Source of the DNA: a virus
DNA length: 64,000 nt
Reading direction: 5' to 3' (one strand)
Virus record (IMG/VR): IMGVR_UViG_3300009082_000018
Coordinates: 32,001-96,000 of that record
Part shown: positions 8,832 through 25,532 of the stretch, piece by piece
How positions within the stretch are numbered: position 1 is the stretch's first letter
How the letters are laid out: each line of letters opens with the position of its first letter
Program-made: the position numbers and the translations under genes
Notes under the pieces: generated by a model
Told to the model about the DNA's origin: nothing
What the model saw: the letters and a program-made list of their open reading frames with translations, nothing else
Database searches by the model: none

Positions 8832-8840
8832 GAGATAGGT

Positions 8841-9137
8841 ATGGCATGGATCCCGAATTCGACCCTGGAGTTTCTCGAGCTGCGGCTGCAACTGCCAGCG
8901 GCGGACGCCGACCATATCGGCTGCCAGGTGGCCGCCCGTCTTCCTCCTGATGTGGAGGAGGGCTTCTCTCTGGTCGTCTACCCAGATGGGAGCGACACGA
9001 TCAACGGGGAGACCACCTACGAGATTGAGCTGCCCGGAACCTCGATCACCGTGATCGTGGGCGAGGTTGGAAACTGGTGGGGCATCGCCAAGTTCGACAT
9101 GCCAGACCCGCCGTACGAGCCAGCACCCGAGTGGTGA
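8841..9137 (+). CDS. tail-fibre-type C-terminal domain fragment
   Basis: L.LPAA...G...V.PDGSDTING.TTY.I...SITV...NW pattern typical of phage tail fibre ends; GGAG SD. Confidence 0.5.
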   Translation: MAWIPNSTLEFLELRLQLPAADADHIGCQVAARLPPDVEEGFSLVVYPDGSDTINGETTYEIELPGTSITVIVGEVGNWWGIAKFDMPDPPYEPAPEW

Positions 9138-9169
9138 GTGATATCCCCCAGGGTGAATGGGAGTAGCAA

Positions 9170-16128: not shown

Positions 16129-16896
16129 ATGATCAAGCAACCTCCCCCTGTTCGACCTCCGGTGAAAGGCTGGAAACAGGCGCCTGGCGGCAAGATTTTC
16201 ACCGGGGACTGCATCGACATGCTCAAAGAGCTGAGTTCAGAGTCTGTTGATCTGTCAATCTTCGATCCCGCCTACGAAAGCCTGGAGAAGCATCGAGCTG
16301 TCGGATCGAAGACCAGGCTCAAGCACTCCAAGGCCTCCAGCAACGATTGGTTCACGACCTTCCCCAACGCCCGATACGGGGAGCTGTTCCAGCAGCTCTT
16401 CCGAGTGATGAAGCCAGGGACTCACATCTACATGTTCTGCGACGAGGAGACTCGCGACGTGGTGACCTGTGGCTGGTCTCCTCAATCTCCGAATGTCAAC
16501 CTCGGTTTCTCACCCATCCTGGCCGCCGGCTTCAAGTACTGGAAGGCTCTCATCTGGGACAAGATGATCGCCGGCATGGGCTATCATTATCGAGCCCAGC
16601 ACGAATTCATCGTTATGGCTGAGAAGATCGTGAGAGTGAACAAGCACCGGCAGCTAAACGATCTAGGACCAGGTGACGTCCTCCAGCATCGTCGCCTCAA
16701 GGGACCGGATTACTACCCGACGGAGAAGCCTCGAGAGTTGATCGAGCTGTTGGTGAAGCAGTCGTCGAATACAGGTGACACGGTGCTTGATATGTTCGCT
16801 GGTTCTGGTGTGGTGGGTCAGGTCTGCCAGGACATCGATCGTCGTTTCATCCTGGGTGACATCGACACCAAAGAGATTCGCCTGAGACTCGTATGA
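16129..16896 (+). CDS. N6-adenine/N4-cytosine DNA methyltransferase (beta class)
   Basis: GDC..L, DPAY (motif IV variant), YPTEKP, VLDMFAGSG (motif I). Confidence 0.88.
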   Translation: MIKQPPPVRPPVKGWKQAPGGKIFTGDCIDMLKELSSESVDLSIFDPAYESLEKHRAVGSKTRLKHSKASSNDWFTTFPNARYGELFQQLFRVMKPGTHIYMFCDEETRDVVTCGWSPQSPNVNLGFSPILAAGFKYWKALIWDKMIAGMGYHYRAQHEFIVMAEKIVRVNKHRQLNDLGPGDVLQHRRLKGPDYYPTEKPRELIELLVKQSSNTGDTVLDMFAGSGVVGQVCQDIDRRFILGDIDTKEIRLRLV

Positions 16897-17366
16897 CCAC
16901 GCTCAAGATCACCTTTGATCCCGATACCAAGTTCTGCCAGCTTCGCTTCGGCTACAATAAGCGATTTGCTGAATTCATGAAAAGTGGGATCACTCCTCTT
17001 TCTTATCGGCGCTGGGTGGCAGACAAGAAGTACTGGGAGGTCCACGTCTCGAAGCTGGCTCGTGTGGTCGTGGTGGCCCGTCGCTACTTCGGTCATGTCG
17101 ATTACTCAGAGCTGCCAGGTGGCCTACAGATCGAGCTGGCCATCAGGATGAGTGCCTTCGATGACGTGGAGGCACCGCCCAAGAGGACGGCTTCTACACC
17201 GCACGATGTGCTCTACCTGCTACCCACTGCGCCAATCGAGGTGGTCAAGGCAGCCTATCGAGCCCTGGCTCTTATTCATCACCCAGATCGGGGCGGTGAC
17301 GAGGAAATCCTGAAGGAGATCAACTCTGCTTACGAAACCATCACTGAGGCGAAAAAAGAGGGTTGA
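16893..17366 (+). CDS. J-domain protein with N-terminal HARP-like domain
   Basis: VKAAYRALA..HHPDRGG....EIN.AY; N-terminal F.Y...F...K......RRW....K.W.V. Confidence 0.8.
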   Translation: MTTLKITFDPDTKFCQLRFGYNKRFAEFMKSGITPLSYRRWVADKKYWEVHVSKLARVVVVARRYFGHVDYSELPGGLQIELAIRMSAFDDVEAPPKRTASTPHDVLYLLPTAPIEVVKAAYRALALIHHPDRGGDEEILKEINSAYETITEAKKEG

Positions 17367-17392
17367 CAAACGACCCGACCTAGTTCAAGGAT
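17363..17392 (+). promoter_or_regulatory. candidate sigma70-type promoter of the leader/tRNA operon
   Basis: Perfect TTGACA at 17363-17368. Weak -10 AAGGAT at 17387-17392 (18-nt spacer); AAGGA could instead be the leader SD. Confidence 0.45.
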
Positions 17393-17397
17393 GAAGA

Positions 17398-17553
17398 ATG
17401 ATGTTCCAAGCCGCAAAACGAACAAAGTCGAGCGCCCGGAGTTGGCGCGGGACGTGTTCGTTTAGCGTGCGCCCAGATCATAGCTCGAGGGAATTGGGTA
17501 CCCTGCAGTCTTACCCGAATACCCTCGAGCCCATTGGAGCGCCAGGCGGCTAG
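17398..17553 (+). CDS. attenuator leader peptide (51 aa, MMFQAAKRTKSSARSWRGTCSFSVRPDHSSRELGTLQSYPNTLEPIGAPGG)
   Basis: ATG ATG at 17398/17401, TAG at 17551-17553. Contains all 20 amino acids; the last codons form the antiterminator strand. Not in the supplied ORF track (<60 aa). Confidence 0.7.
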   Translation: MMFQAAKRTKSSARSWRGTCSFSVRPDHSSRELGTLQSYPNTLEPIGAPGG

Positions 17554-17589
17554 GACTCGAGGAAACATAGGACTCGAGAGGCCGCCTGG
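17542..17589 (+). promoter_or_regulatory. antiterminator helix
   Basis: CCAGGCGGCU (17542-51) pairs with GGCCGCCUGG (17580-89): 9 WC + 1 GU. Inner CUCGAG/CUCGAG pair (17556-61/17573-78). Mutually exclusive with the terminator. Confidence 0.75.
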
Positions 17590-17611
17590 GAAACCAAGCG
17601 GCCTTTTTTTT
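17579..17611 (+). terminator. intrinsic terminator directly upstream of the first tRNA
   Basis: AGGCCGCcUGG-GAAA-CCAaGCGGCCU stem followed by a U-tract to 17611. Confidence 0.9.
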
Positions 17612-17616
17612 GTTCT

Positions 17617-17688
17617 GGGTGGTTCGTCCAACTGGAAGGGCCCCGGGCCGTAACCCCGGCTATCTAGGTTCGACTCCTAGACCACCCA
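17617..17688 (+). tRNA. tRNA-Tyr(GUA), atypical: short variable loop, C33
   Basis: GGGTGGT/ACCACCC acceptor; loop CC-GTA-AC; TTCGACT. Confidence 0.75.
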
Positions 17689-17755
17689 TTGGAGATCGAC
17701 TATGTGCTTGCAGGAATTCATGCACCGCTTGAAACAGAGGCTTGAGTCAGATCAA

Positions 17756-17828
17756 GCCTCCGTGGTGCAGCGGCTAGCACACATGGCTTTTACCCATCGA
17801 GACGCAGGTTCGAGTCCTGCCGGGGGCA
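17756..17828 (+). tRNA. tRNA-Lys(UUU)
   Basis: GCCTCCG/CGGGGGC; loop CT-TTT-AC. Confidence 0.85.
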
Positions 17829-17840
17829 CTGAAGGAAGTC

Positions 17841-17912
17841 GGGCTCGAAGTGTTATGGTTGCACAGCGGACTCTTAATCCGACAAGTGAGGGTTCAACTC
17901 CCTCCGGGCCCA
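17841..17912 (+). tRNA. tRNA-Lys(CUU)
   Basis: GGGCTCG/CGGGCCC; loop CT-CTT-AA. Confidence 0.88.
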
Positions 17913-17923
17913 TTGAGAATTGA

Positions 17924-17995
17924 TCCGGGTTAGCCTAGCGGCAAAGGCAGCGCGCTCTGACCGCGCCATCGAAGGTTCGAGTCCTTCACCCGGAA
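17924..17995 (+). tRNA. tRNA-Gln(CUG)
   Basis: TCCGGGT/ACCCGGA; loop CT-CTG-AC. Confidence 0.9.
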
Positions 17996-18006
17996 CTGCG
18001 CAACTG

Positions 18007-18025
18007 GCCCTTGACAATTGAATAG
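18007..18025 (+). promoter_or_regulatory. boxA-like antitermination element
   Basis: GCCCTTGACAATTGAATAG resembles rRNA-operon boxA-containing leader/spacer sequences; the embedded TTGACA has no matching -10. Confidence 0.5.
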
Positions 18026-18041
18026 CTGGTCGTGGTCGTTT

Positions 18042-18116
18042 GGTGAGGTCGTCCAATCGGTAGGACACCAGACTGAAAATCTGGGAACGACGGTTCGACT
18101 CCGTCCCTTGCCACCA
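18042..18116 (+). tRNA. tRNA-Phe(GAA), CCA encoded
   Basis: GGTGAGG/CCTTGCC; loop CT-GAA-AA. Confidence 0.92.
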
Positions 18117-18119
18117 CTT

Positions 18120-18190
18120 GGGCCTGTAGCTTGAAGGTCGAGCCACCGGCTCATAACCGGTTGGTGAGTGTTCGATTCACTCCGGGCCTA
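18120..18190 (+). tRNA. tRNA(CAU), probably Ile2 (lysidine type)
   Basis: GGGCCTG/CGGGCCT with C4-G69 and C5-G68; loop CT-CAT-AA. Confidence 0.8.
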
Positions 18191-18194
18191 TTGA

Positions 18195-18265
18195 TCGGGT
18201 GTCGTCTAACGGTAGGGCCGTGGACTTTGGATCCATGAATAGAGGTTCGACTCCTCTCACCCGAA
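18195..18265 (+). tRNA. tRNA-Gln(UUG)
   Basis: TCGGGTG/CACCCGA; loop CT-TTG-GA. Confidence 0.88.
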
Positions 18266-18267
18266 AA

Positions 18268-18340
18268 CGGGGAGTAGGGCATTGGATGACCCGCTTGCTT
18301 TGGGAGCAAGAATAAGCTGGTTCGATTCCAGTCTCCCCGA
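18268..18340 (+). tRNA. tRNA-Pro(UGG)
   Basis: CGGGGAG/CTCCCCG; loop TT-TGG-GA. Confidence 0.88.
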
Positions 18341-18351
18341 CTGATCTTCAT

Positions 18352-18426
18352 TCCAGAGTAGCTCAAAGGTGGAGCGGCGCCCTGTTAAGGCGATGGCTGG
18401 GGGTTCGAGTCCCTCCTCTGGAGCCA
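18352..18426 (+). tRNA. tRNA-Asn(GUU), CCA encoded
   Basis: TCCAGAG/CTCTGGA, G73; loop CT-GTT-AA. Confidence 0.92.
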
Positions 18427-18438
18427 GTAAAGTTGATC

Positions 18439-18510
18439 CGCCTCGTGGCTCAGTGGTCCGAGCAGTCGGCCGATAACCGACAGGCGAGAGTTCGATTCTC
18501 TCCGAGGCGA
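18439..18510 (+). tRNA. tRNA-Ile(GAU), C33
   Basis: CGCCTCG/CGAGGCG; loop CC-GAT-AA. Confidence 0.87.
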
Positions 18511-18522
18511 AAAGAAGATCAT

Positions 18523-18595
18523 GGCGGACGAAGCCAAACGGTGCGGCGCCTGACTGTGGATCAGGTTCTAGGGGGTTCGACTCCCCTCGTTCGCC
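18523..18595 (+). tRNA. tRNA-His(GUG)
   Basis: G-1/C73; GCGGACG/CGTTCGC; loop CT-GTG-GA. Confidence 0.88.
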
Positions 18596-18696
18596 CTCGC
18601 ACATGTTATGCTCCTGCGCAGGTCTACCAGAGCGGGCCAGATCGCCCTTGAATGGGCGTGGAGGGCGGCGCAGGCGGGCCAGGGCGGGGAGCGCTT

Positions 18697-18768
18697 GGGG
18701 ACGTAGTGATAGCGGGAGCACACGGCGTTCGCAACGCTGAAGTGAGGGTTCGACTCCCTCCGTCTCCA
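18697..18768 (+). tRNA. tRNA-Ala(CGC)
   Basis: G3.U70; loop TT-CGC-AA. Confidence 0.88.
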
Positions 18769-18774
18769 CTCTCT

Positions 18775-18845
18775 GGGCTCATAGTGAAATGGGATCACGC
18801 AGCCTCGGCAAGGCTGAATCCCGGGTTCAACTCCCGGTGGGTCCA
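18775..18845 (+). tRNA. tRNA-Ala(GGC), C33
   Basis: G3.U70; loop TC-GGC-AA. Confidence 0.87.
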
Positions 18846-18850
18846 CTCTT

Positions 18851-18933
18851 GGAGGGTACTGAGGAATGGTCCTCAACATGGTCCGAACCCATGGGCGGCC
18901 GAAAGACCGGGCGTTCGATTCGTCTACCCTCCG
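18851..18933 (+). tRNA. tRNA-Ser(CGA), C33
   Basis: GGAGGGT/ACCCTCC, G73; long variable arm; loop TC-CGA-AC. Confidence 0.85.
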
Positions 18934-18961
18934 CTGATTGTTGATCTGAAAATTGTACCAT

Positions 18962-19032
18962 GGACGCGGAAGCTGTCGGATGGCTGACCGGCTGTCTACC
19001 GGTTGAAGAGGGTTCAACTCCCTTCGCGTCCG
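18962..19032 (+). tRNA. tRNA-Asp(GUC)
   Basis: GGACGCG/CGCGTCC, G73; loop CT-GTC-TA (U37). Confidence 0.83.
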
Positions 19033-19033
19033 C

Positions 19034-19107
19034 CGCAGGGTTGAGGAGAGGTCTACCTCGCCTGGCTCATAACCAGGAGCACGTTGGTTCAAATCCAACC
19101 CCTGCTA
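19034..19107 (+). tRNA. tRNA(CAU), initiator fMet-like
   Basis: C1xU72 mismatch, CGCAGGG start; loop CT-CAT-AA; only two of the three usual anticodon-stem GC pairs. Confidence 0.78.
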
Positions 19108-19109
19108 GC

Positions 19110-19181
19110 GCGGTTGAGGTGTTTGTGGTTGCACGCGGCGTTGCCAACGCTGAAGACAGGGTTCGACTCCCTGCAGCCGCA
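19110..19181 (+). tRNA. tRNA-Gly(GCC)
   Basis: GCGGTTG/CAGCCGC; loop TT-GCC-AA. Confidence 0.87.
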
Positions 19182-19183
19182 AC

Positions 19184-19256
19184 GCCGGAGGTCGAGGGTT
19201 CAAATCCCTCCAGGCTCCCGCAAGGGACCTGTAGCTCAGTCAGGTAGAGCACCGGC
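19184..19256 (+). ncRNA. free-standing circularly permuted tRNA-like RNA (YrlA-type effector domain without Ro stem)
   Basis: GCCGG, AGGTC, T arm (GAGGG TTCAAAT CCCTC), acceptor closed by a GCAA loop, TA, D arm (GCTC...GAGC), A, CCGGC. Confidence 0.8.
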
Positions 19257-19260
19257 TTCT

Positions 19261-19345
19261 GGAAGGTGACCCGTAATGGTACGGGAGCTGGTTGCTAACC
19301 AGTCAGGGGGTAACGCCCCAGCAGGTTCGATTCCTGCACCTTCCG
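19261..19345 (+). tRNA. tRNA-Ser(GCU)
   Basis: GGAAGGT/ACCTTCC; long variable arm; loop TT-GCT-AA. Confidence 0.88.
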
Positions 19346-19352
19346 CCGGATT

Positions 19353-19436
19353 GGAGAGCGAGAAGCAGGGTGCGCAACTGCGTTGGAAGCGCAGGAGGGT
19401 TGAAAGGCCCGCTGGGTTCGATTCCCAGGCTCTCCG
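19353..19436 (+). tRNA. tRNA-Ser(GGA)
   Basis: GGAGAGC/GCTCTCC; long variable arm; loop TT-GGA-AG; weak D arm. Confidence 0.82.
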
Positions 19437-19529
19437 CTAGATGAGTCGACTGACACGGAGACGGCAGCTGATCCCGGTCCCCAAGGGCGTCTTACGGCTG
19501 ACGGGCTGTCAGAGCACGACTCATCGCAT

Positions 19530-19601
19530 GCGGGTGAGATGTTAACGGTTGCATGTCAGTCTTCCAAACTGAATGACGGAGTTCAACTCTCCGCACCCGC
19601 A
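19530..19601 (+). tRNA. tRNA-Gly(UCC)
   Basis: GCGGGTG/CACCCGC; loop CT-TCC-AA. Confidence 0.88.
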
Positions 19602-19615
19602 CCGTATAGTTGATC

Positions 19616-19694
19616 CGGGATGTAGCTCAGCCAGGGAGAGCGCTCGCTTCGGGAGCGAGAGGTTTCGTGGGTTCGAACCCCACCATCCCGACCA
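19616..19694 (+). tRNA. tRNA-Pro(CGG), CCA encoded
   Basis: CGGGATG/CATCCCG; loop TT-CGG-GA. Confidence 0.92.
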
Positions 19695-19696
19695 AT

Positions 19697-19770
19697 GCCA
19701 AGGTAGCCCAACAGGAAGTGGCACACGCCTCAGGCGCGTGACAGTGAGGGTTCGAATCCCTTCCTTGGCA
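19697..19770 (+). tRNA. tRNA-Leu(CAG), short variable loop
   Basis: GCCAAGG/CCTTGGC, A73; loop CT-CAG-GC. Confidence 0.85.
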
Positions 19771-19775
19771 TCTTC

Positions 19776-19847
19776 GCCGCCAAAGCGTAAAGGGTGACGC
19801 GCCGGCTTCGTACACCGGAGAACCCAGTTCAACTCTGGGTGGCGGCT
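19776..19847 (+). tRNA. tRNA-Thr(CGU)
   Basis: GCCGCCA/TGGCGGC; loop TT-CGT-AC. Confidence 0.84.
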
Positions 19848-19849
19848 CT

Positions 19850-19982
19850 GGGTGGACCGACAGAGGTTGGATTATCCATGCTAAGGACGAGGTCGCGGGT
19901 TCGAATCCCGTCGGGCTCCTTCGGGGGCCCGTGGCTCAGCGGTAGAGCGCGTAAAACTCCAGCTTCAACCCCTTGTTCACCC
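19850..19982 (+). ncRNA. YrlA-type Y RNA (Ro60-binding stem plus permuted tRNA domain)
   Basis: GGGUGGAC-C(bulge)-GA / UU-GUUCACCC helix; second stem AGGUUGGA/UCCAGCUU; T arm, acceptor closed by a UUCG loop, D arm in permuted order. Confidence 0.88.
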
Positions 19983-19986
19983 TACT

Positions 19987-20057
19987 GCCGGATGATGACT
20001 CCTGGGGAGTCAGCGCACTTGTAAGGCGCCAGGGCGGTTCGACTCCGACATCCGGCT
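19987..20057 (+). tRNA. tRNA-Thr(UGU), atypical D arm
   Basis: GCCGGAT/ATCCGGC; loop CT-TGT-AA; D region can form the 7-bp stem TGACTCC/GGAGTCA. Confidence 0.75.
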
Positions 20058-20069
20058 CTGATCTGAAAT

Positions 20070-20141
20070 GGCCTTGTCTGCTAACGGTAGGCAACCTGGT
20101 TCTCACCCAGGAAACGATGGGTTCAACTCCCTCCAAGGTCA
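20070..20141 (+). tRNA. tRNA-Glu(CUC), bulged T stem
   Basis: GGCCTTG/CAAGGTC; loop TT-CTC-AC. Confidence 0.84.
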
Positions 20142-20146
20142 CTGAC

Positions 20147-20218
20147 GGCCCCATCTGCTAACGGTAGGCACCGTGGTTTTCACCCACGCAACGGCGGGTT
20201 CAACTCCCCCTGGGGTCA
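20147..20218 (+). tRNA. tRNA-Glu(UUC), bulged T stem
   Basis: GGCCCCA/TGGGGTC; loop TT-TTC-AC. Confidence 0.84.
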
Positions 20219-20222
20219 CTGA

Positions 20223-20295
20223 GGGCGCTTCGTCTAGCGGCAAGGACCCCTGCTCGACACGCAGGTGATCGCCGGTTCGAGTCCGGCAGTGCCCA
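20223..20295 (+). tRNA. tRNA-Val(GAC), C33
   Basis: GGGCGCT/AGTGCCC; loop TC-GAC-AC. Confidence 0.87.
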
Positions 20296-20299
20296 CTTC

Positions 20300-20371
20300 G
20301 GGGAGTTGGTGAAACTGGGATCACACGGCCCTTGCACGGCTGGATCAGGGGTTCAAATCCCCTACTCTCCA
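20300..20371 (+). tRNA. tRNA-Ala(UGC)
   Basis: G3.U70; loop CT-TGC-AC. Confidence 0.9.
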
Positions 20372-20437
20372 CTACCTGCACAGGTCATTGCCGATATGAC
20401 TAGTCTGTCAGAAGGGATGGTCTGTGCGGGGTCGATT

Positions 20438-20510
20438 GCCGCCAAAGTCCACGTGGTCGGGACGCCTGCTTGGTACGCAGGAGGGCAGAGTTCGATTCTC
20501 TGTGGCGGCT
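20438..20510 (+). tRNA. tRNA-Thr(GGU)
   Basis: GCCGCCA/TGGCGGC; loop TT-GGT-AC. Confidence 0.86.
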
Positions 20511-20568
20511 CCGCTGATTATCAGCATTTCACTTATGAAGATCACTGATAATCACTGATGAGACTGAT

Positions 20569-20639
20569 GGGGTTGAGGCTGAGGTAGCCGGACGGTCTCC
20601 AAAACCGTCGTCGAGGGGGTTCGATTCCCTCCAACCCTG
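20569..20639 (+). tRNA. tRNA-Trp(CCA)
   Basis: GGGGTTG/CAACCCT, G73; loop CT-CCA-AA. Confidence 0.85.
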
Positions 20640-20644
20640 CTGAT

Positions 20645-20715
20645 GAGTCCGTGTCCGAGAGGCGAGGTACCTGGCTGCAACCCAGGTCACGGGGGTTCAA
20701 ATCCCTCCGGACTCT
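20645..20715 (+). tRNA. tRNA-Cys(GCA)
   Basis: GAGTCCG/CGGACTC, U73; loop CT-GCA-AC. Confidence 0.88.
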
Positions 20716-20720
20716 CTGAT

Positions 20721-20796
20721 GCACCCGTGGTCCAAAGGATGGGCACCGGTCCTCTAAACCGGATCCATGCTGGTTCGAGTCCAGCCGGGTGTGCCA
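20721..20796 (+). tRNA. tRNA-Arg(UCU), C33, CCA encoded
   Basis: GCACCCG/CGGGTGT; loop CC-TCT-AA. Confidence 0.88.
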
Positions 20797-20797
20797 A

Positions 20798-20870
20798 GGT
20801 CCCGTGGTCTAAAGGATGGGCACCTGTTTCCTAAACAGGATCAATGCAGGTTCGAGTCCTGCCGGGATCA
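20798..20870 (+). tRNA. tRNA-Arg(CCU)
   Basis: GGTCCCG/CGGGATC; loop TT-CCT-AA. Confidence 0.88.
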
Positions 20871-20874
20871 CTGA

Positions 20875-20948
20875 GCTGCGATAGTGTAGGGGACTCTGCA
20901 CGGTGCTCTCCGAAAGCACAGGTCTGGGCTCGACTCCCAGTCGCAGCA
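20875..20948 (+). tRNA. tRNA-Arg(CCG), C54
   Basis: GCTGCGA/TCGCAGC; loop CT-CCG-AA; T loop CTCGACT. Confidence 0.82.
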
Positions 20949-20950
20949 TT

Positions 20951-21023
20951 GGGCGGTTCTCCTAGCGGAATGGAACCTGACCTACACTCAGGAATAATGG
21001 GGGTTCAACTCCCTCACCGCCCA
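20951..21023 (+). tRNA. tRNA-Val(UAC), C33
   Basis: GGGCGGT/ACCGCCC; loop CC-TAC-AC. Confidence 0.83.
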
Positions 21024-21027
21024 TCAT

Positions 21028-21099
21028 CTGCCCATGGTCTAAAGGAAGGGCCCCTGACTACGGATCAGGTGCATGCAGGTTCGAGTCCTGCTGGGCAGG
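21028..21099 (+). tRNA. tRNA-Arg(ACG)
   Basis: CTGCCCA/TGGGCAG; loop CT-ACG-GA. Confidence 0.88.
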
Positions 21100-21105
21100 C
21101 TACAC

Positions 21106-21180
21106 GCCGGGGTGGCGCAAATGGAAGATCGCTCCAGACTTAGGATCTGGCTGTTGAGGGTTCGAATCCCTTCCCCGGTA
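21106..21180 (+). tRNA. tRNA-Leu(UAG), short variable loop
   Basis: GCCGGGG/CCCCGGT; loop CT-TAG-GA. Confidence 0.86.
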
Positions 21181-21183
21181 CTT

Positions 21184-21257
21184 GGCAGCAGGGAGGAGAG
21201 GGACTCCTCACCGCTCTCATAAAACGGGAATTGCTGGTTCGATCCCAGCTGCTGCCA
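21184..21257 (+). tRNA. tRNA(CAU), probably elongator Met
   Basis: GGCAGCA/TGCTGCC fully paired; loop CT-CAT-AA. Confidence 0.75.
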
Positions 21258-21260
21258 CGA

Positions 21261-21333
21261 GCCCTCGTAGCCCAAGAGGAAGCGGCATCGCCTTAAAAGC
21301 GATCAAGTGGGGGTTCGAGTCCCTCCGGGGGCA
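21261..21333 (+). tRNA. tRNA-Leu(UAA), short variable loop
   Basis: GCCCTCG/CGGGGGC; loop CT-TAA-AA. Confidence 0.85.
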
Positions 21334-21336
21334 CAC

Positions 21337-21409
21337 CGAGGAGTAGGGCATTGGATGACCCGCTCGGATGGGGTCCGAGAGCAAGCTGGTTCGATTCCAG
21401 TCTCCTCGA
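21337..21409 (+). tRNA. tRNA-Pro(GGG)
   Basis: CGAGGAG/CTCCTCG; loop AT-GGG-GT; D and T arms identical to Pro(UGG). Confidence 0.85.
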
Positions 21410-21418
21410 TCTTGATAT

Positions 21419-21492
21419 GCCAGGGTAGCCCAATCGGTAGTGGCACCAGCCCGAGGCGCTGGACAGTGTGGGTTCGAATCCCATCCCTGGTA
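21419..21492 (+). tRNA. tRNA-Leu(GAG), C33, short variable loop
   Basis: GCCAGGG/CCCTGGT; loop CC-GAG-GC. Confidence 0.85.
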
Positions 21493-21496
21493 CTAT

Positions 21497-21571
21497 GGCG
21501 CGGTAGCCCAACTGGTAGGAGGCACCGGCCTCAAGCTCCGGACAGTGAGGGTTCGAATCCCTCTCGCGCTA
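21497..21571 (+). tRNA. tRNA-Leu(CAA), short variable loop
   Basis: GGCGCGG/TCGCGCT; loop CT-CAA-GC. Confidence 0.84.
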
Positions 21572-21611
21572 CGACTTGTGAAAACGACCACGATCTGCTA
21601 TTGGTGCAATC

Positions 21612-22121
21612 ATGCAAACGCTCGTACTCGACCAAGGCTACCAGCCGATCAACACCGTCCCTTGGACCAAGGCGATGGGATACATCGCCCGTGGCAAGGT
21701 CGACGTGCTGGAGGAGTACGAGCAGGAGGTCCACTTCAACATGGGCATGCCGGCGGTGGTGAGGCTCAACCATCGCATCAGTGCCAGCAAGAAGAGGATC
21801 AAGTTCTCTCGTCAGAATGTGCTGGCGAGGGACAAGTTCAGTTGCCAGTACTGCGGCGCCCACGGACGTGACGTGGTTCTAACCTTCGATCACATCATCC
21901 CCAGGTCTCGGGGTGGTCGAACAGAGTGGGAGAACATCGTCATGGCCTGCCAGGAGTGCAATGCACGAAAGGCTGACCTGACGCTGAGAGAATCGGGAAT
22001 GCGTCTGCGGACGCAGCCTGTTCGACCGACGTGGGTGCCCACTTTCAACGTCGCTCTGCGGGATGCTGGCAACATCCCACCAGAGTGGCGGAACTACTGG
22101 ACAACAGAGCTGCAGCCGTAG
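21612..22121 (+). CDS. HNH endonuclease (McrA-like family)
   Basis: TLVLD.GY.P; SR.NVL.RD...CQYCG; T.DHIIPRSRGG...WEN.V.AC..CN..KA. Confidence 0.92.
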   Translation: MQTLVLDQGYQPINTVPWTKAMGYIARGKVDVLEEYEQEVHFNMGMPAVVRLNHRISASKKRIKFSRQNVLARDKFSCQYCGAHGRDVVLTFDHIIPRSRGGRTEWENIVMACQECNARKADLTLRESGMRLRTQPVRPTWVPTFNVALRDAGNIPPEWRNYWTTELQP

Positions 22122-22184
22122 AACCTTGTCCGGAATACTTCCTTGTCCTCTACGTAGCGGACAGGGAGGAAAACCGGACAACTT

Positions 22185-22267
22185 GGAGGGTGCCGCCGGT
22201 TGGTTGGCAACACGGTTTGAACCCGTGGGTGGTCGCAAGGCTAGGGGTTCGACTCCTCCACCCTCCG
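22185..22267 (+). tRNA. tRNA-Ser(UGA)
   Basis: GGAGGGT/ACCCTCC, G73; long variable arm with GCAA loop; loop TT-TGA-AC. Confidence 0.85.
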
Positions 22268-22310
22268 CTCTTCCCGCCAAATCCTTCATGATTATTTTTG
22301 ATTCTTTTGC

Positions 22311-22338
22311 TTGACAAAGAATCATTCATAGGGATAAT
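22311..22338 (+). promoter_or_regulatory. sigma70-type promoter for the Y RNA-Ro60 unit
   Basis: TTGACA-N16-GATAAT with an AT-rich upstream tract; predicted start coincides with the 5' end of the first Y RNA. Confidence 0.7.
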
Positions 22339-22343
22339 AGGAT

Positions 22344-22432
22344 CATGAGGGACCGACTGAGTTAGGTTATCAAACTCTCACTTTGATTGGGGCCTCTGGC
22401 CCCGCTCCTAGCTCAACAACTTGTTCCTCATG
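22344..22432 (+). ncRNA. short Y RNA (Ro60-binding stem, no tRNA domain)
   Basis: CAUGAGGGAC-C-GA / UU-GUUCCUCAUG; second stem UGAGUUAGG/CCUAGCUCA; followed by U6. Confidence 0.82.
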
Positions 22433-22453
22433 TTTTTTGATCTGAAAAGGAGA

Positions 22454-22586
22454 ATTGAGGGACCGACGATTTGGGTTACCTTGGACCTGTTGGGGCTGGT
22501 TCAATTCCAGCTCGGTCACTTAGGTGATCGATAGTGTAGAGGCAGCACAGCAGGAGTGTTCCCAGATCAACAACTTGTTCCTCAAT
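22454..22586 (+). ncRNA. YrlA-type Y RNA (Ro60-binding stem plus permuted tRNA domain)
   Basis: AUUGAGGGAC-C-GA / UU-GUUCCUCAAU; GAUUUGGG/CCCAGAUC; T arm GCUGG UUCAAUU CCAGC, closed acceptor, D arm GUGU...GCAC. Confidence 0.88.
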
Positions 22587-22599
22587 CTTTATTGGCTGT

Positions 22600-22670
22600 G
22601 AGAGTGGACCGCTGATCTTGGGTTACCTTCTTTGGTGAACAACCCCAGGGTCGATCTTTTGTTCGCTCTC
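22600..22670 (+). ncRNA. short Y RNA-like element in the Ro60 leader
   Basis: GAGAGUGGAC-C-G / U-GUUCGCUCUC; GAUCUUGGG/CCCAGGGUC; shares GGUUACC with the other copies. Confidence 0.75.
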
Positions 22671-22696
22671 CTTTTGTTCGCCCATGGAGGTGGACC

Positions 22697-24298
22697 GTGC
22701 AGAACTTCGGTGGCTCGTTCTCGACTGTTAGCACTCCGCAGACCCAGCCGACCCCGGGCAAGAACGAAATCAAGATGCGCTCCGGTGGCTACGGCTTCGC
22801 CGTGGATGACTGGGTGCGCCTCAACCGGTTTTTGATCATGGGCTCGGAGGGCGGAACCTACTACGCCTCGGAACGCGAGATGACCAAGGTCGCCAGCGAT
22901 GCGGCCATGAGGCTGGTCAGACAGAATGGTGTGGCGGTGGTCAACCACGTCGTCGAGATCAGCCAGTCCGGTCGTGCGTTCAAGAACGATCCGGCGCTGT
23001 GGGTTCTGGCCATGGCATCGCAGCTCGGTGATCAGGCTACCAAAGAGCTGGCGTACAAGTCGCTGCCGTTGGTGGCACGCATCTCGACCCACCTGTTCCA
23101 CTGGCTGCAGTACACCAAGGCCTTCGGGCACCAGGGAGGCAACGGCTTCAAGCGGGCAGTGGCACGATGGTACCTGGAGCAGACACCGGCTCATCTGGCT
23201 CACCAGGTCGTGAAGTATCAGGCTCGTGATGGGTGGTCGCACCTGGACGCTCTTCGGATCGGTCACCCGACTCCGTCGGATGAGCTGTTCCAGGCAATCT
23301 TCCACTACGTCAAGCACGGCAGGACCAAAGATCTGTCGGCGGTTGCGGCGGTTCCGGAAGAGCTGACGCTCATCTGGGCGTGGGAGAAGATCAAAGAGGC
23401 AAAGAACGCCGATGAGGTCGCCAATCTGATCAGTGCTTTCAAGTTGCCGCACGAGTGCGTGCCGAACGAGTGGAAAGACCAGCAGGGGGTCTGGGGTGCG
23501 TTGTTGAACTCGATGGCACCGCACGCCATGCTGCGGAACCTGGGCAAGATGACCTCGGTGGGTCTGCTAGAGGGCAAGTCGGCGGCGGTGCAGAAGGTCG
23601 TGGACACGCTGACGGACATGGAGCGTCTGAAGAAGGCCAGGATGCACCCGATGTCGGTGCTGACTGCGTTGGCGGTCTACCGGACGGGCCGTGGCATCAA
23701 GGGCTCGCTGAGCTGGAACCCGAACCGTCGGGTGATCGACGCGCTCGATGAGGCCTTCTACCTGTCCTTCGGGACAGTGACGCCGACGGGCAAGCGGCTG
23801 CTTCTGGCCCTGGACGTATCAGGGTCGATGGGATCGCCGTGCGCTGGTTCTCCGCTGACCTGCAGGGAGGCGACGGCAGCCATGGCGATGGTCACGGCAC
23901 GGACGGAAGAGGACTACGAGATCGTCGGCTTCTGCGACAGCCTGAAGACGCTGAGCATCTCGCCGAAGCAGCGTCTGGATGACGTCGTGGAGTCGATCTC
24001 CCATCTGTCCTTCGGAGGCACGGACTGCAGCTTGCCGTTCCGTTGGGCGCAGTCCAAGCAGCAGAAGTTCGACGGTGTTATCACCTACACCGACAATGAG
24101 AGTTGGGGAGGTCCAGTGAAGGTTCACCAGGCAATGCAGCAGTATCGCCAGAAGATGGGCACCACAACCAAGGGAGCCTTCGTGGCCTTTGCGGCCAATG
24201 AGTACTCGGTGGCAGACCCGGACGACGCGGGTCAGATGAACTTCGTGGGCCTGGACGCCAACCTGCCACAGGCGCTCTCCAGCTTCATTGGAGAGTAG
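22697..24298 (+). CDS. rsr: Ro60/TROVE domain RNA-binding protein (Rsr ortholog)
   Basis: GGY.F....W.RL.RFLI.GSEGGTYY; KYQ.R.GWSH.D.LR; A.LRNLGKMT; HP..VL.A...Y..G.G; VWA DVSGSM and YTDNE.W; GGAGG SD. Confidence 0.95.
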   Translation: MQNFGGSFSTVSTPQTQPTPGKNEIKMRSGGYGFAVDDWVRLNRFLIMGSEGGTYYASEREMTKVASDAAMRLVRQNGVAVVNHVVEISQSGRAFKNDPALWVLAMASQLGDQATKELAYKSLPLVARISTHLFHWLQYTKAFGHQGGNGFKRAVARWYLEQTPAHLAHQVVKYQARDGWSHLDALRIGHPTPSDELFQAIFHYVKHGRTKDLSAVAAVPEELTLIWAWEKIKEAKNADEVANLISAFKLPHECVPNEWKDQQGVWGALLNSMAPHAMLRNLGKMTSVGLLEGKSAAVQKVVDTLTDMERLKKARMHPMSVLTALAVYRTGRGIKGSLSWNPNRRVIDALDEAFYLSFGTVTPTGKRLLLALDVSGSMGSPCAGSPLTCREATAAMAMVTARTEEDYEIVGFCDSLKTLSISPKQRLDDVVESISHLSFGGTDCSLPFRWAQSKQQKFDGVITYTDNESWGGPVKVHQAMQQYRQKMGTTTKGAFVAFAANEYSVADPDDAGQMNFVGLDANLPQALSSFIGE

Positions 24299-24301
24299 CT
24301 C

Positions 24302-24511
24302 ATGCCCCGCCGCCCAGAAGACCAACCGCAAACCCCACCTGAGGTCTTCACCGTCCGCCTGCAAGGTCAGGATGCGGCGGACTTCCGTCGTCTGCAATCA
24401 GCAGCTGCAGCTGAGGTCCCTCCAGGAGCCCGGCAGACTCGTCACAGCTTTGCTGTCTGGTTGCTGAAATTGGGGATGAAAGCGATCGAGACGGTCAAGC
24501 GGAAGCGCTAG
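24302..24511 (+). CDS. small basic protein, possible ribbon-helix-helix DNA binder
   Basis: VFTVRL beta strand followed by two predicted helices; starts 3 nt after the rsr stop. Confidence 0.5.
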   Translation: MPRRPEDQPQTPPEVFTVRLQGQDAADFRRLQSAAAAEVPPGARQTRHSFAVWLLKLGMKAIETVKRKR

Positions 24512-24634
24512 CTGTTGCTGCTGCCTAGGTCTCCAGCAGGTCCCACACCATCCCTAGAGATGACGTTTCCGTGCTCGTCCACGTCCACGTTCAGTGCTGG
24601 CAGCTCACCACTGCTGATGTAGTTTCCAATTCTC

Positions 24635-24904
24635 CTATGGTTTCTTTTCTGGCTCTCCCGATGGTGGTTCTGGCTCCTTTGGAGTCGGCACAGGCTTGGA
24701 TACCTGAAAGACCTTGCACCGGACGGCTAGGAACAGCTCTCCTTCCTGCACACCAGTGATCCGCATTTTGGAATCGTTGTCAAGCTCGATCCTATAGCTC
24801 TCCTGGTGCAGCATCTGATGGAAGATCGCCAGCAGCTGCTCAGACATCTGCTTCGGAGATAGGTTTCGTTTACCTGAACGAGGACGTTTTTGTTGTGCAG
24901 ACAT
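24635..24904 (-). CDS. hypothetical protein
   Basis: Continues the minus-strand run after the kinase. Confidence 0.4.
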   Translation of the reverse strand: MSAQQKRPRSGKRNLSPKQMSEQLLAIFHQMLHQESYRIELDNDSKMRITGVQEGELFLAVRCKVFQVSKPVPTPKEPEPPSGEPEKKP

Positions 24905-25532
24905 CTTTGATAGTCGCCGAAATCGCGTCCCAGTCCGGAACGGCAGTGGTTGGATCCCAGATCAGTCTGGAAACCTTTACAGCGTGTCCCCAAGGCATCA
25001 AGCCAGACTCAGCTTCTTGCAGGAGCTTCTGGTAGCCTTCGTTGAGTCGCTCGAGGTAGTCGATAGCCACAGCTGCCTCAGCCCCACGGTTCCGCTGTCG
25101 CATACGTTCGTATGCCGTCTTCGGCTGAACGTCAAGGAAGATCAGTTTGGTGGGTGGAAGAAGCTCGTGGCACATGACGTTGTAGCAGTACTCGTAGGTA
25201 TCCCAGTCGAGCTGGTTGATGTTACCCATTGCAGTGTGCAGGCTGGCGAAGACTCGGTCACCGCTGAGAGAGCGATCGAGAATCGCGCCGGCAAAGGGCC
25301 CAACTCCCAGAGAGATGAGGGCAGCCATTTTCTGCATTGCGTACCTTCGATGCAAAAGGTAGATCTGCATTCCAAAGGCATAGGTCTTTGGGTCCTGGTA
25401 GAACTTCTCCAGGTATGGGTTGGTGTCGACTGGCTCTTCGATGACGGAGAAGTTGAGCCGCTTTCCGACTTCGCGGGAGAACGTGGTTTTTCCACAGCCA
25501 ATGATTCCTTCTACCCAGAGTAGAGGCTTCAT
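24870..25532 (-). CDS. deoxynucleoside kinase (dNK/dGK family)
   Basis: VEGIIGCGKTT, EEPV..NPYL..FY.DP, DRS...D.VF, R.R..E. Confidence 0.92.
   Translation of the reverse strand: MKPLLWVEGIIGCGKTTFSREVGKRLNFSVIEEPVDTNPYLEKFYQDPKTYAFGMQIYLLHRRYAMQKMAALISLGVGPFAGAILDRSLSGDRVFASLHTAMGNINQLDWDTYEYCYNVMCHELLPPTKLIFLDVQPKTAYERMRQRNRGAEAAVAIDYLERLNEGYQKLLQEAESGLMPWGHAVKVSRLIWDPTTAVPDWDAISATIKDVCTTKTSSFR

What the first reader, a model, noticed from the sequence alone, without database searches (positions are those of the whole stretch)
17363..24511. Integrated phage translation-rescue island: sensor, tRNAs, tRNA mimics, Y RNAs and Ro60
Seen in one co-directional 7.1-kb block: attenuator, 43 tRNAs, boxA-like site, three permuted tRNA-like domains, four Ro-binding RNAs, HNH, Ro60 and a small possible regulator. 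Established: bacterial Rsr-Y RNA complexes partner with PNPase, and the Salmonella rsr-yrlBA-rtcBA operon responds to tRNA cleavage; many anti-phage systems cut tRNA. No RtcB or RtcR is present in this window. Inference: a replace-and-clear counter-defence, in which the leader detects tRNA loss, the array resupplies tRNA, and Ro60/Y RNPs clear damaged RNA or decoy the nuclease.
Basis: inference. Interest (0 to 1): 0.85.

Follow-up and report, generated by a model that had tools for sequence, protein, structure and literature searches.

The report
Attenuator-gated phage tRNA array with Ro60
An uncultured wetland phage carries a full set of 43 tRNA genes behind a small "test" gene and a stop/go RNA switch, followed by four Y RNAs and the RNA-quality-control protein Ro60, and it probably makes its own tRNAs whenever ribosomes decode slowly.

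Summary
On one strand of a 109.6-kb phage contig lie:
- a structured leader
- 43 tRNAs that can decode all 61 sense codons
- one YrlA-type Y RNA and one free-standing permuted tRNA-like RNA inside the array
- an HNH gene
- three more Y RNAs behind their own promoter
- a canonical Ro60
- a small ORF

New here: four distant relatives share the leader. In each, a near-leaderless ORF of about 50 codons ends in the 5' arm of an antiterminator that competes with an intrinsic terminator. The peptides are unrelated, yet each ORF calls on an unusually large share of its array's tRNA species (36 of 41 here; P from 4e-5 to 1e-2).

The HNH belongs to the family linked to bacterial long tRNA arrays, including the stress-induced Anabaena trn operon. 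Y RNA genes sit either inside the array, flush with tRNA ends, or beside Ro60. Ro60 lies beside the array in two of the five genomes and about 7-8 kb from it in two; none lay within 10 kb in the fifth.

Phage Ro60/Y RNAs and stress-induced tRNA arrays are published; I found no paper on the attenuator or the embedding. Rescue from anti-phage tRNases remains inference. No RtcB, CCA-adding enzyme or Rnl1 is on the contig.

This scan has flagged the same kind of locus before in other genomes.

The parts
17364..17392 (+). Promoter-like site of the leader: -35 TTGACA (17364-17369), 17-nt spacer, hexamer CAAGGA at the -10 position. The leader ATG follows 9 nt later.
   Evidence: The same layout (-35, 17 nt, CAnnnT-type hexamer, 9-12 nt, ATG) occurs in all five leaders. 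The generic sigma-70 scan did not call it.
17401..17553 (+). Leader ORF: 50 codons from ATG 17401, or 51 from ATG 17398. Stop UAG at 17551-17553. Probably leaderless.
   Evidence: 41 distinct codons and all 20 amino acids. Only 3 of 13,618 stop-free 51-codon windows of the genome have 41 or more distinct codons. It of 41 array anticodon species, P = 4e-5. Analogous ORFs with unrelated peptides occur in four relatives.
17542..17589 (+). Antiterminator hairpin. The 5' arm (17542-17551) holds the last codons of the leader ORF. The 3' arm (17580-17589) is the 5' arm of the terminator.
   Evidence: RNAfold of 17536-17593 gives -29.6 kcal/mol. The same geometry occurs in L089, G003, L121 and L130 with different arm sequences.
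17580..17612 (+). Intrinsic terminator: 10-bp G+C-rich hairpin plus U8, ending 4 nt before the first tRNA.
   Evidence: -22.3 kcal/mol. Conserved in four relatives.
17616..21572 (+). tRNA array, first gene tRNA-Tyr(GTA): 42 of the 43 tRNA genes, tightly packed. It includes Arg(CCG) at 20875-20948 and the atypical Ser(CGA) at 18850-18933.
   Evidence: Most genes lack an encoded CCA.
18011..18025 (+). boxA-like conserved motif (TGACAA-N-T-NN-ATAG) just before tRNA-Phe.
   Evidence: Invariant in window, L089 and G003 at the same position. A single match in the window is not significant on its own: 26 of 100 shuffles reach one match.
19182..19260 (+). Free-standing circularly permuted tRNA-like RNA: closing stem, T arm, closed acceptor hairpin, D arm. 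It has no anticodon loop and no Ro-binding stem. It exactly fills the gap between tRNA-Gly(GCC) and tRNA-Ser(GCT).
   Evidence: YrlA model positions 23-85, 39 bits. Fold -34.1 kcal/mol. R1 positions 42-86. By eye, L089 3335-3481 and 3557-3701 have the same ends but large inserts.
19850..19984 (+). Y1, a YrlA-type Y RNA inside the array. It starts 2 nt after tRNA-Thr(CGT) and ends 3 nt before tRNA-Thr(TGT).
   Evidence: Rfam YrlA over the full model, 37 bits, E = 2e-5, below the gathering score. R1 109 bits. Covariation.
21612..22121 (+). HNH endonuclease gene, directly after tRNA-Leu(CAA).
   Evidence: PF01844 1e-16; phrog_16726 2e-35. Homologues sit after tRNA-Leu(CAA) in L089, G003 and several metagenome arrays. 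They also sit beside the Anabaena pCC7120delta trn operon and inside a Mycobacterium plasmid array.
22185..22268 (+). tRNA-Ser(TGA), the last tRNA gene.
22311..22338 (+). Sigma-70-type promoter TTGACA-16-GATAAT. The predicted start coincides with the 5' end of Y2.
   Evidence: 11 of 12 consensus matches.
22344..22432 (+). Y2, a Y RNA with a two-hairpin module.
   Evidence: Fold -38.6 kcal/mol, z = -5.1. Stem scan.
22454..22586 (+). Y3, a YrlA-type Y RNA with a permuted tRNA-like module.
   Evidence: R1 108.6 bits. Fold z = -3.4. Covariation.
22600..22670 (+). Y4, a short Y RNA.
   Evidence: Fold z = -3.4. Stem scan.
22674..22699 (+). Hairpin over the Ro60 ribosome-binding site and GTG start, built from the two Y-helix strands in swapped order.
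   Evidence: Read from the sequence. A like hairpin lies before the Ro60 ribosome-binding site in L130. Function inferred.
22697..24298 (+). Ro60 (Rsr) orthologue: TROVE plus a vWA domain with the DxSxS motif.
   Evidence: Pfam. PDB: vertebrate Ro60 entries (9nen, 1yvp) 1e-111, Deinococcus Rsr (2nvo) 3e-104. Invariant D373/S375/S377 in alignment A1.
24302..24511 (+). 69-aa ORF starting 4 nt after the Ro60 stop; possibly a ribbon-helix-helix protein.
   Evidence: No Pfam or PHROG match. Atlas leads to RHH_1/TacA-type folds only. No homologue in any fetched locus.

Best explanation
This is a phage-borne long tRNA array of the L-array kind. It is gated by a ribosome-dependent transcription attenuator and joined to a Ro60/Y RNA unit.

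How the switch should work (inferred from anatomy conserved in five genomes):
- A near-leaderless ORF of about 50 codons is transcribed first.
- If ribosomes read it quickly to its stop codon, they cover the 5' arm of the antiterminator. The terminator then forms 4 nt before tRNA-Tyr and the array stays off.
- If a ribosome stalls anywhere upstream, the antiterminator forms and the array is transcribed. The ORF calls on 36 of the 41 tRNA species, so a shortage of almost any tRNA could cause the stall.

What the transcript yields (inferred from flush junctions): host tRNA-processing enzymes cut the long transcript. Cutting the flanking tRNAs also releases one YrlA-type Y RNA and a permuted tRNA-like RNA.

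Second unit: a separate promoter drives three more Y RNAs, Ro60 and a small ORF.

By analogy with studied Ro60/Y RNA particles, the phage particles would steer a host 3'-5' exonuclease such as PNPase toward or away from structured or damaged RNAs during infection.

Overall purpose (inferred): keep translation running when the tRNA pool fails. The cause could be host shut-off, a codon mismatch or a tRNA-cutting defence.
For: Attenuator:
- The leader folds far better than shuffles (z = -6.4).
- Antiterminator -29.6 against terminator -22.3 kcal/mol, with the ORF stop abutting the shared arm.
- The same geometry holds in L089, G003, L121 and L130 with different arm sequences and unrelated peptides.
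- Promoter-to-ATG spacing is conserved.

tRNA sampling by the leader ORF:
- Array species called: 36/41, 33/39, 28/32, 19/22 and 22/26.
- Against stop-free windows of each genome, P = 4e-5, 6e-4, 9e-4, 1e-2 and 6e-3.
- Codon diversity P = 2e-4, 7e-3, 1.3e-2, 1.1e-2 and 7e-2.

L-array kinship: HNH homologues lie beside or inside the Anabaena trn operon and a Mycobacterium plasmid array. That operon is induced by translational stress and aids survival (PMC8421152).

Link between Y RNAs, Ro60 and the array:
- The YrlA model R1 hits the Ro60 strand just upstream of Ro60 in about 20 viral loci, and hits inside the tRNA region of Streptomyces phage Limpid.
- Y RNA genes inside the array / beside Ro60 number 1/3 in the window, 4/0 in G003 and 0/3 in L069. 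The array copies start 1-4 nt after a tRNA 3' end.
- L130 repeats the order leader, array, HNH, Y RNAs, Ro60.
- Array-linked Ro60s are scattered over the Ro60 tree (10 label changes).

Ro60 is canonical. Phage Ro60 binding to Y RNAs and host PNPase is published for phage phiLo (PMC12135203).

Contigs from two wetland RNA libraries match parts of the array, HNH, Ro60 and the small ORF exactly. This shows presence only.
Against: - No experiment. No transcript ends were seen: only assembled contigs could be laid.
- The -10 hexamers are poor sigma-70 matches, and the host and its promoter rules are unknown.
- Without a ribosome, the window's full-length MFE favours the terminator, whereas L089 and G003 favour the antiterminator. 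The default state may therefore differ between genomes.
- The five leaders are homologous, so their P values are not fully independent.
- Other Ro60-linked arrays (L002, G001, G002, L063) lack this leader.
- Y2-Y4 and Ro60 have their own promoter, so the leader does not control them.
- Ro60 occurs in small phages without arrays, for example Gordonia phage BearBQ at 55 kb. No Ro60 was found within 10 kb of the HNH in L121.
- No RNA ligase or CCA-adding enzyme is on the contig, which is 65% complete.
- The Ro60 tree backbone is weak: starred branches force only 2 label changes.
Confidence: 0.55

Rival explanations
1. Supply plus self-quality-control, with no role in defence. The phage needs its own tRNA set for late protein synthesis, because host tRNAs decay or do not fit its codon usage. 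The attenuator is simple feedback homeostasis. Ro60/Y RNPs deal with misfolded or misprocessed products of the phage's own large tRNA transcripts.
For: The tRNA set is complete. The block lies at the end of the rightward gene block (helicase, amidase, methylase), where it meets the leftward block that holds the terminase. Ro60 proteins are known to bind misfolded non-coding RNAs, and the tRNA-like module of YrlA is handled by tRNA enzymes (PMC4201824). Y RNAs are co-transcribed with the tRNAs.
Against: Nothing here separates this from the stress or defence reading. The attenuator logic fits both. Small Ro60 phages without arrays show that Ro60 is not needed only for array products.
Confidence: 0.25
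2. Linkage without a shared function. The leader, array and HNH form a mobile L-array cassette spread by the HNH endonuclease. Ro60 and Y RNAs merely gather in the same accessory RNA-gene region of large phages. Y RNA genes drift into arrays because they descend from tRNAs and can use the same processing.
For: The HNH family travels with arrays in plasmids, bacteria and phages (PMC8421152). Ro60 position varies: adjacent, 7 kb downstream, 8 kb away and divergent, or not found within 10 kb in L121. The Ro60 unit has its own promoter.
Against: Ro60 meets tRNA arrays on many branches of the Ro60 tree and in cultured Streptomyces phages. Y RNAs sit flush with tRNA ends in three lineages. The full order recurs in L130 at 46% Ro60 identity.
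Confidence: 0.12
3. Host-nuclease capture. The main task of the phage Ro60/Y RNPs is to bind and damp host PNPase or another exonuclease. This would protect phage transcripts or disturb host RNA-guided immunity. The tRNA-like modules serve as handles for host proteins, and the neighbouring tRNA array is a separate matter.
For: Thermus phage phiLo Ro60 with two Y RNA-like RNAs binds host PNPase and lowers its activity (PMC12135203). Here four Y RNAs carry different modules.
Against: The phiLo protein is only distantly related (E = 1e-5, against 1e-111 for vertebrate Ro60). The idea does not explain why Y RNAs are embedded in arrays, nor the recurrent array linkage.
Confidence: 0.08

Closest known systems
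[quoted passage not shown] PCC 7120 (PMC8421152)
   Same: Dozens of tightly packed tRNA genes on a mobile element, with a linked HNH endonuclease of the same family. In Anabaena the operon is silent until translation is stressed and then aids survival. Linked RNA-repair genes (rtcB) are reported in other species.
   Different: In Anabaena, control is by repeats at the promoter (PMC8421152); the words 'leader' and 'attenuat' do not occur in that paper, and a later paper names the repressor TrcR (PMC10272220, abstract only). Here a leader-ORF attenuator precedes the array. Here the element is a lytic-type phage. Ro60 and Y RNAs, not RtcB, are the linked RNA-handling genes, and non-tRNA RNAs are embedded in the array.
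Leader-peptide transcription attenuators (trp, his, leu, thr, ilv operons) and the mycobacterial whiB7 uORF attenuator (PMC10274678)
   Same: A short translated ORF, alternative antiterminator and terminator hairpins, and read-through when the ribosome stalls. The whiB7 uORF likewise responds to loss of many amino acids, tRNAs and synthetases, and its peptide is poorly conserved.
   Different: There is no run of one regulatory codon; the ORF spreads over nearly all tRNA species. The regulated genes are tRNAs themselves. The mRNA looks leaderless. It sits on a phage.
Bacterial and phage Ro60 (Rsr) with YrlA-type Y RNAs (PMC4201824; phage phiLo, PMC12135203)
   Same: Ro60 gene with several Y RNA genes directly upstream on the same strand. 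At least one Y RNA carries a permuted tRNA-like module. The Ro-binding stem has the CCGA / CUUG motifs.
   Different: Some Y RNA genes lie inside a tRNA array, where tRNA processing should define their ends. There is a tRNA-like module with no Ro-binding stem. The scores lie below Rfam's YrlA gathering threshold.
Salmonella rsr-yrlBA-rtcBA RNA repair operon (PMC7790460)
   Same: Ro60 and Y RNAs tied to a response to damaged tRNAs.
   Different: No RtcB or other RNA ligase was found on the contig; RtcA and RtcR were not searched for. The response here would be replacement of tRNAs, not religation.
tRNA-rich actinophages with a Ro-like gene (Streptomyces cluster BE such as Limpid and BoomerJR; Mycobacterium cluster C such as Bxz1)
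   Same: The Ro-like gene lies among co-directional tRNA genes. An HNH gene lies in the tRNA region of Limpid. YrlA-type hits occur next to tRNAs.
   Different: Ro60 identity is only 31-42%. Their tRNA genes are interspersed with many small ORFs. I did not look for this leader in them.

Membership tests
Ro60 / Rsr (TROVE family) | TROVE (HEAT-repeat ring) domain plus a C-terminal vWA domain with a DxSxS metal site | tested here: met
   PF05731 3e-33 and PF25045 2e-55. D373, S375 and S377 are invariant in A1. Full-length matches to solved Ro60/Rsr structures at 1e-111 to 3e-104.
Ro60 / Rsr (TROVE family) | Binds Y RNA partners | not testable with these tools
   Four candidate partners are encoded nearby. 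Binding needs an experiment.
YrlA (Rfam RF02553) | Score at or above Rfam's gathering threshold (69 bits) | tested here: not met
   Best matches are 37 bits (19864-19974, full model) and 39 bits (19186-19254, partial). No hit at all for Y3.
YrlA (Rfam RF02553) | Terminal Ro-binding stem enclosing a T arm, closed acceptor-like hairpin and D arm, with the gene near Ro60 | tested here: met
   In the five-sequence alignment, 19 of 26 predicted pairs keep pairing through changes on both sides. Model R1 finds like RNAs on the Ro60 strand just upstream of Ro60 in about 20 loci.
Leader-peptide transcription attenuator | Short ORF, intrinsic terminator, and an antiterminator that shares an arm with the terminator and is masked by a ribosome at the end of the ORF | tested here: met
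   in five genomes.
Leader-peptide transcription attenuator | Cluster of regulatory codons for the amino acid that is sensed | tested here: not met
   The ORF holds all 20 amino acids and 41 distinct codons; no run of one codon.
Leader-peptide transcription attenuator | Read-through rises on ribosome stalling | not testable with these tools
   Needs reporter or in vitro transcription-translation assays.
L-array (long tRNA gene array) | Long, tight, co-directional array of tRNA genes on a mobile element | tested here: met
   42 tRNA genes in 4.0 kb, plus one after the HNH gene, on a phage contig.
L-array (long tRNA gene array) | Linked HNH endonuclease of the array-associated family | tested here: met
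   tblastn 8e-16 (47% identity over the HNH core) to the HNH gene beside the pCC7120delta trn operon, and 2e-24 to one inside a Mycobacterium intracellulare plasmid array. tRNAs in both were confirmed by ARAGORN.
L-array (long tRNA gene array) | Induction by translational stress | not testable with these tools
   Only inferred from the attenuator.
RtcB/RtcA/RtcR RNA repair operon | RtcB ligase present | tested here: not met
   No PF01139 match on the 109.6-kb contig; controls rang in 10 of 14 genomes. The contig is 65% complete.
T-box riboswitch (uncharged-tRNA sensor) | Match to the Rfam T-box model in the leader | tested here: not met
   No T-box match in 17000-25000 up to E = 5.
rrn-type boxA antitermination site | boxA consensus bound by NusB/NusE | tested here: inconclusive
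   The motif at 18011-18025 is conserved in three arrays. It resembles boxA only loosely, and binding cannot be tested.

The most novel reading that the evidence does not exclude
The locus is a self-regulating counter-measure to tRNA-cutting defences.
- The all-codon leader senses loss of any tRNA species.
- The array replaces the pool.
- The permuted tRNA-like RNAs have a tRNA body and elbow but no anticodon loop, so they act as uncuttable decoys for anticodon nucleases. Some stand free; others are tethered to Ro60 through Y RNAs.
- Ro60/Y RNPs hand cleaved tRNA halves to a host exonuclease.
Probability: 0.2. Interest if true: 0.9.

Novelty: new variant of a known kind. Interest (0 to 1): 0.7.

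Why it matters
Phage tRNA genes are usually explained by codon usage, or more recently by escape from tRNA-cutting defences. How they are switched on is largely unknown.

A conserved leader that reads out the whole tRNA pool and gates a full tRNA set would be a new use of attenuation. Its signal would be decoding speed at almost any codon, and its output would be tRNAs themselves.

The link to Ro60 and Y RNAs gives a concrete setting in which to ask what bacterial and phage Ro60 particles do. That question has stayed open since their discovery. It also suggests that Y RNAs can be matured by tRNA-processing enzymes as passengers in tRNA operons.

All parts are small and can be tested in ordinary laboratory strains.

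Tried and rejected
- Searching viral contigs with the single Ro60 protein found nothing. An alignment was needed.
- Megablast of 21500-24600 and blastn of the leader against cultured phages found nothing.
- No T-box or other Rfam cis-regulator in the leader.
- No RtcB, CCA-adding enzyme or T4-type RNA ligase 1 on the contig. The Rnl1 search had no positive control, so it says little.
- My first narrow Y RNA pattern scans missed most relatives. A covariance model and a looser stem scan did better.
- Partial R1 hits at model positions 42-95 in other arrays are junctions of two adjacent tRNAs, not free modules.
- The leader pipeline found no such attenuator before the arrays of L002, G001, G002 or L063. 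L091 has coding sequence right up to its array.
- The Acaryochloris plasmid HNH homologue has no tRNAs nearby.
- The small ORF has no homologue in any fetched locus.
- Read laying could use only assembled contigs, so RNA ends, strand and level are unknown. No RNA-library contig was listed over 22344-22690 (Y2-Y4) or over the leader, which proves nothing.
- Two literature searches for an attenuator before phage tRNA arrays returned nothing relevant.
- Complex prediction, structure prediction and fold search were not used: no protein-protein claim is made, and Ro60 is already clear by sequence.

Full report
WHAT THE RECORD IS

The window is bases 32001-96000 of a 109,593-bp linear IMG/VR viral contig, 65% complete by CheckV.

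Gene layout:
- A long rightward block ends with a helicase, an amidase, a DNA methylase and a J-domain protein.
- The finding follows this block.
- Leftward genes begin at about 24870 (nucleotide kinases, terminase large subunit, SbcC-like).

Nothing indicates a host chromosome.

Near-identical DNA is held by freshwater-sediment, soil and wetland runs. Two wetland RNA libraries contain contigs that match parts of the array, HNH, Ro60 and the small ORF exactly. These are assembled contigs, so they show presence only. They give no transcript ends and no expression level.

CHECK OF THE OBSERVATION

- tRNAs: ARAGORN finds 41 on the + strand. Rfam adds 20875-20948, which I read by hand as Arg(CCG). 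18850-18933 is an atypical Ser(CGA) with C at position 33. The 43 genes carry 41 different anticodons and can read all 61 sense codons by wobble.
- CCA ends: only about four genes encode CCA, and no CCA-adding enzyme is on the contig.
- Proteins: Pfam confirms HNH and Ro60. Ro60 is a full-length canonical orthologue. It scores 1e-111 to the vertebrate Ro60 entries (9nen, 1yvp), 3e-104 to Deinococcus Rsr and only 1e-5 to the phiLo phage protein.
- Y RNAs: four RNAs share a terminal stem, an asymmetric internal loop (CCGA on the 5' side, CUUG-type on the 3' side), a second stem and a variable module. These are Y1 at 19850-19984 inside the array, and Y2-Y4 at 22344-22670.
- Permuted modules: Y1 and Y3 carry a permuted tRNA-like module. 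A third such module, 19182-19260, stands alone and exactly fills the gap between two tRNAs.
- Rfam threshold: YrlA matches stay below the gathering score (37-39 bits against 69).
- Second promoter: an 11-of-12 sigma-70-type promoter at 22311-22338 places a start at the first base of Y2. Y2-Y4, Ro60 and the small ORF are therefore a second unit.

THE LEADER

The 225 nt before tRNA-Tyr fold far better than shuffles (z = -6.4). They end in a hairpin plus U8 terminator.

The terminator's 5' arm can instead pair with 17542-17551 (-29.6 against -22.3 kcal/mol). That segment holds the last codons of an ORF whose stop is at 17551-17553.

The ORF has 41 distinct codons and all 20 amino acids:
- Only 3 of 13,618 stop-free 51-codon windows of this genome reach 41 distinct codons.
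- The probability is 0.006 even with uniform codon use.
- Its codons call on 36 of the 41 anticodon species of the array, P = 4e-5.

RELATIVES

The HNH protein led to arrays with the same build. These are two viral contigs of 171 kb (G003) and 194 kb (L069/L089), and two metagenome contigs (L121, L130). G003, L089 and L130 start with tRNA-Tyr(GTA); in L121 I read the Tyr gene only by eye. In L089, G003 and L121 the HNH gene follows tRNA-Leu(CAA). In L130 it follows Leu(CAG), which is two genes after Leu(CAA).

All four have the following features:
- a -35 box, a 17-nt spacer, a CAnnnT-type hexamer, and 9-12 nt later an ATG
- an ORF of 49-62 codons with 19-20 amino-acid types
- a stop codon in or next to the 5' arm of an antiterminator
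- a conserved terminator

The peptides are not alike, and the arm sequences differ while the pairing is kept. Each ORF calls on an unusually large share of its own array's tRNA species:

| Genome | Species called | P |
|---|---|---|
| L089 | 33/39 | 6e-4 |
| G003 | 28/32 | 9e-4 |
| L121 | 19/22 | 1e-2 |
| L130 | 22/26 | 6e-3 |

The leaders are homologous, so these values are not fully independent. Even so, keeping an open frame, its end point and its codon spread while the peptide drifts is what a translated sensor predicts.

Arrays of other lineages that also sit near Ro60 (L002, G001, G002, L063) lack this leader.

A boxA-like motif before tRNA-Phe is invariant in three arrays. Its role is open.

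Y RNAs, Ro60 AND THE ARRAY

A covariance model was built from five YrlA-type RNAs of three phages. In that alignment, 19 of 26 predicted pairs keep pairing through changes on both sides.

The model finds like RNAs:
- on the Ro60 strand just upstream of Ro60 in about 20 of 80 viral loci
- in Streptomyces phage Limpid directly after tRNA-Ile, and again a further kilobase downstream

Placement of Y RNA genes in other genomes:

| Genome | Y RNA genes | Source |
|---|---|---|
| G003 | Four inside the array, each starting 1-4 nt after a tRNA 3' end; none beside Ro60 | |
| L069/L089 | Three before Ro60; none in the array | |
| G001 | Seven on the array strand | |
| L002 | tRNAs, three Y RNAs, Ro60, then more tRNAs | |
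| L130 | Leader, array, HNH, permuted modules and Y RNAs, Ro60 (46% identity) | |

On a tree of 83 Ro60 proteins, the array-linked ones are scattered (10 label changes). The backbone is weak, and starred branches force only two changes.

In cultured phages, the Ro-like gene of Streptomyces cluster BE lies among co-directional tRNAs. In Bxz1 two tRNAs lie 3 kb upstream. Small Gordonia and Microbacterium phages have Ro60 in genomes of 52-55 kb.

THE HNH GENE

Homologues lie beside the trn operon of Nostoc sp. PCC 7120 plasmid delta and inside a 28-tRNA array of a Mycobacterium intracellulare plasmid.

This ties the window's array to the published L-arrays. Those arrays spread horizontally and are linked to an HNH homing endonuclease. 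In Anabaena they are induced by translational stress and aid survival (PMC8421152).

The gene is most simply a DNA endonuclease that travels with the array. I found no sign of an RNA role.

WHAT IS KNOWN AND WHAT IS NOT

Published:
- Y RNAs beside Ro60 in 22 phages (PMC4201824)
- TROVE proteins in jumbo phages, read as RNA-repair platforms next to tRNAs (PMC7824862)
- a phage Ro60 that binds Y RNA-like RNAs and host PNPase (PMC12135203)
- a Ro60/RtcB operon that responds to damaged tRNAs (PMC7790460)
- stress-induced L-arrays (PMC8421152)
- a uORF attenuator that senses broad translation stress (whiB7, PMC10274678)

I found no paper on a leader-ORF attenuator before tRNA genes, or on Y RNAs embedded in tRNA arrays.

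The scan's own index holds several earlier reports of the same kind of locus in other genomes. I treat them as leads, not as evidence.

VERDICT

The reading as one functional island is partly supported:
- The sensor and supply part is well supported by comparison.
- The Ro60/Y RNA link is recurrent, but its purpose is unknown.
- The counter-defence and decoy steps are inference.

I class it as a new variant of known kinds: an L-array plus Ro60/Y RNA, under a new type of attenuator.

Noticed in passing
window 22674-22699; L130 11341-11368: Just before (L130) or over (window) the Ro60 ribosome-binding site, the two strands of the Y RNA Ro-binding helix occur in swapped order and can form a hairpin. 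This could let free Ro60 repress its own translation. It is present in two genomes with different sequences.
   Followed up: partly
window 18597-18696, 19438-19529, 20373-20437, 20513-20568: Four further spacers of 56-100 nt inside the array are neither tRNA nor Y RNA. 19438-19529 folds into a long hairpin (z = -2.3); 18597-18696 is no better than shuffles. No family match.
   Followed up: partly
L089 3335-3481, 3557-3701, 3775-3879: Spacers between the Ala tRNAs of a relative hold permuted tRNA-like RNAs with large inserts. The inserts share a short motif (CGCAUACGGAAG-like).
   Followed up: no
L090 (G003) 6231-6370: A Y RNA whose module is a tRNA-like domain in normal order (D arm, anticodon-like arm with C33, T arm), with the acceptor strand closed by an upstream hairpin. 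This differs from the YrlA permutation.
   Followed up: no
L084 (G001) 8350-9200, minus strand: An AT-rich 88-kb phage has a tandem cluster of at least five Y RNAs, with two sigma-70-type promoters (read by eye) within the cluster. The cluster lies upstream of its tRNA region and about 18 kb from Ro60.
   Followed up: partly
L121 (760-kb contig) and L130 6124-6690: One relative of the array lies on a 760-kb metagenome contig. Another lies next to a tRNA-Leu gene and bacterial-looking genes. Some members may therefore be prophages or elements in cells, which could reveal the host group.
   Followed up: no
L089 1690-1760, L121 7285-7330, L130 6950-7000: After the terminator, three relatives keep a GGAGG plus ATG that opens a short frame running toward tRNA-Tyr. 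The window lacks it.
   Followed up: no
window 18024-18644: ARAGORN reports a permuted tmRNA spanning eight tRNA genes. Rfam finds no tmRNA, so it is a false call.
   Followed up: yes
window 16893-17366: A 157-aa protein with a C-terminal J domain (DnaJ, 6e-9) ends where the leader's -35 box begins: its TGA stop overlaps the TTGACA.
   Followed up: no
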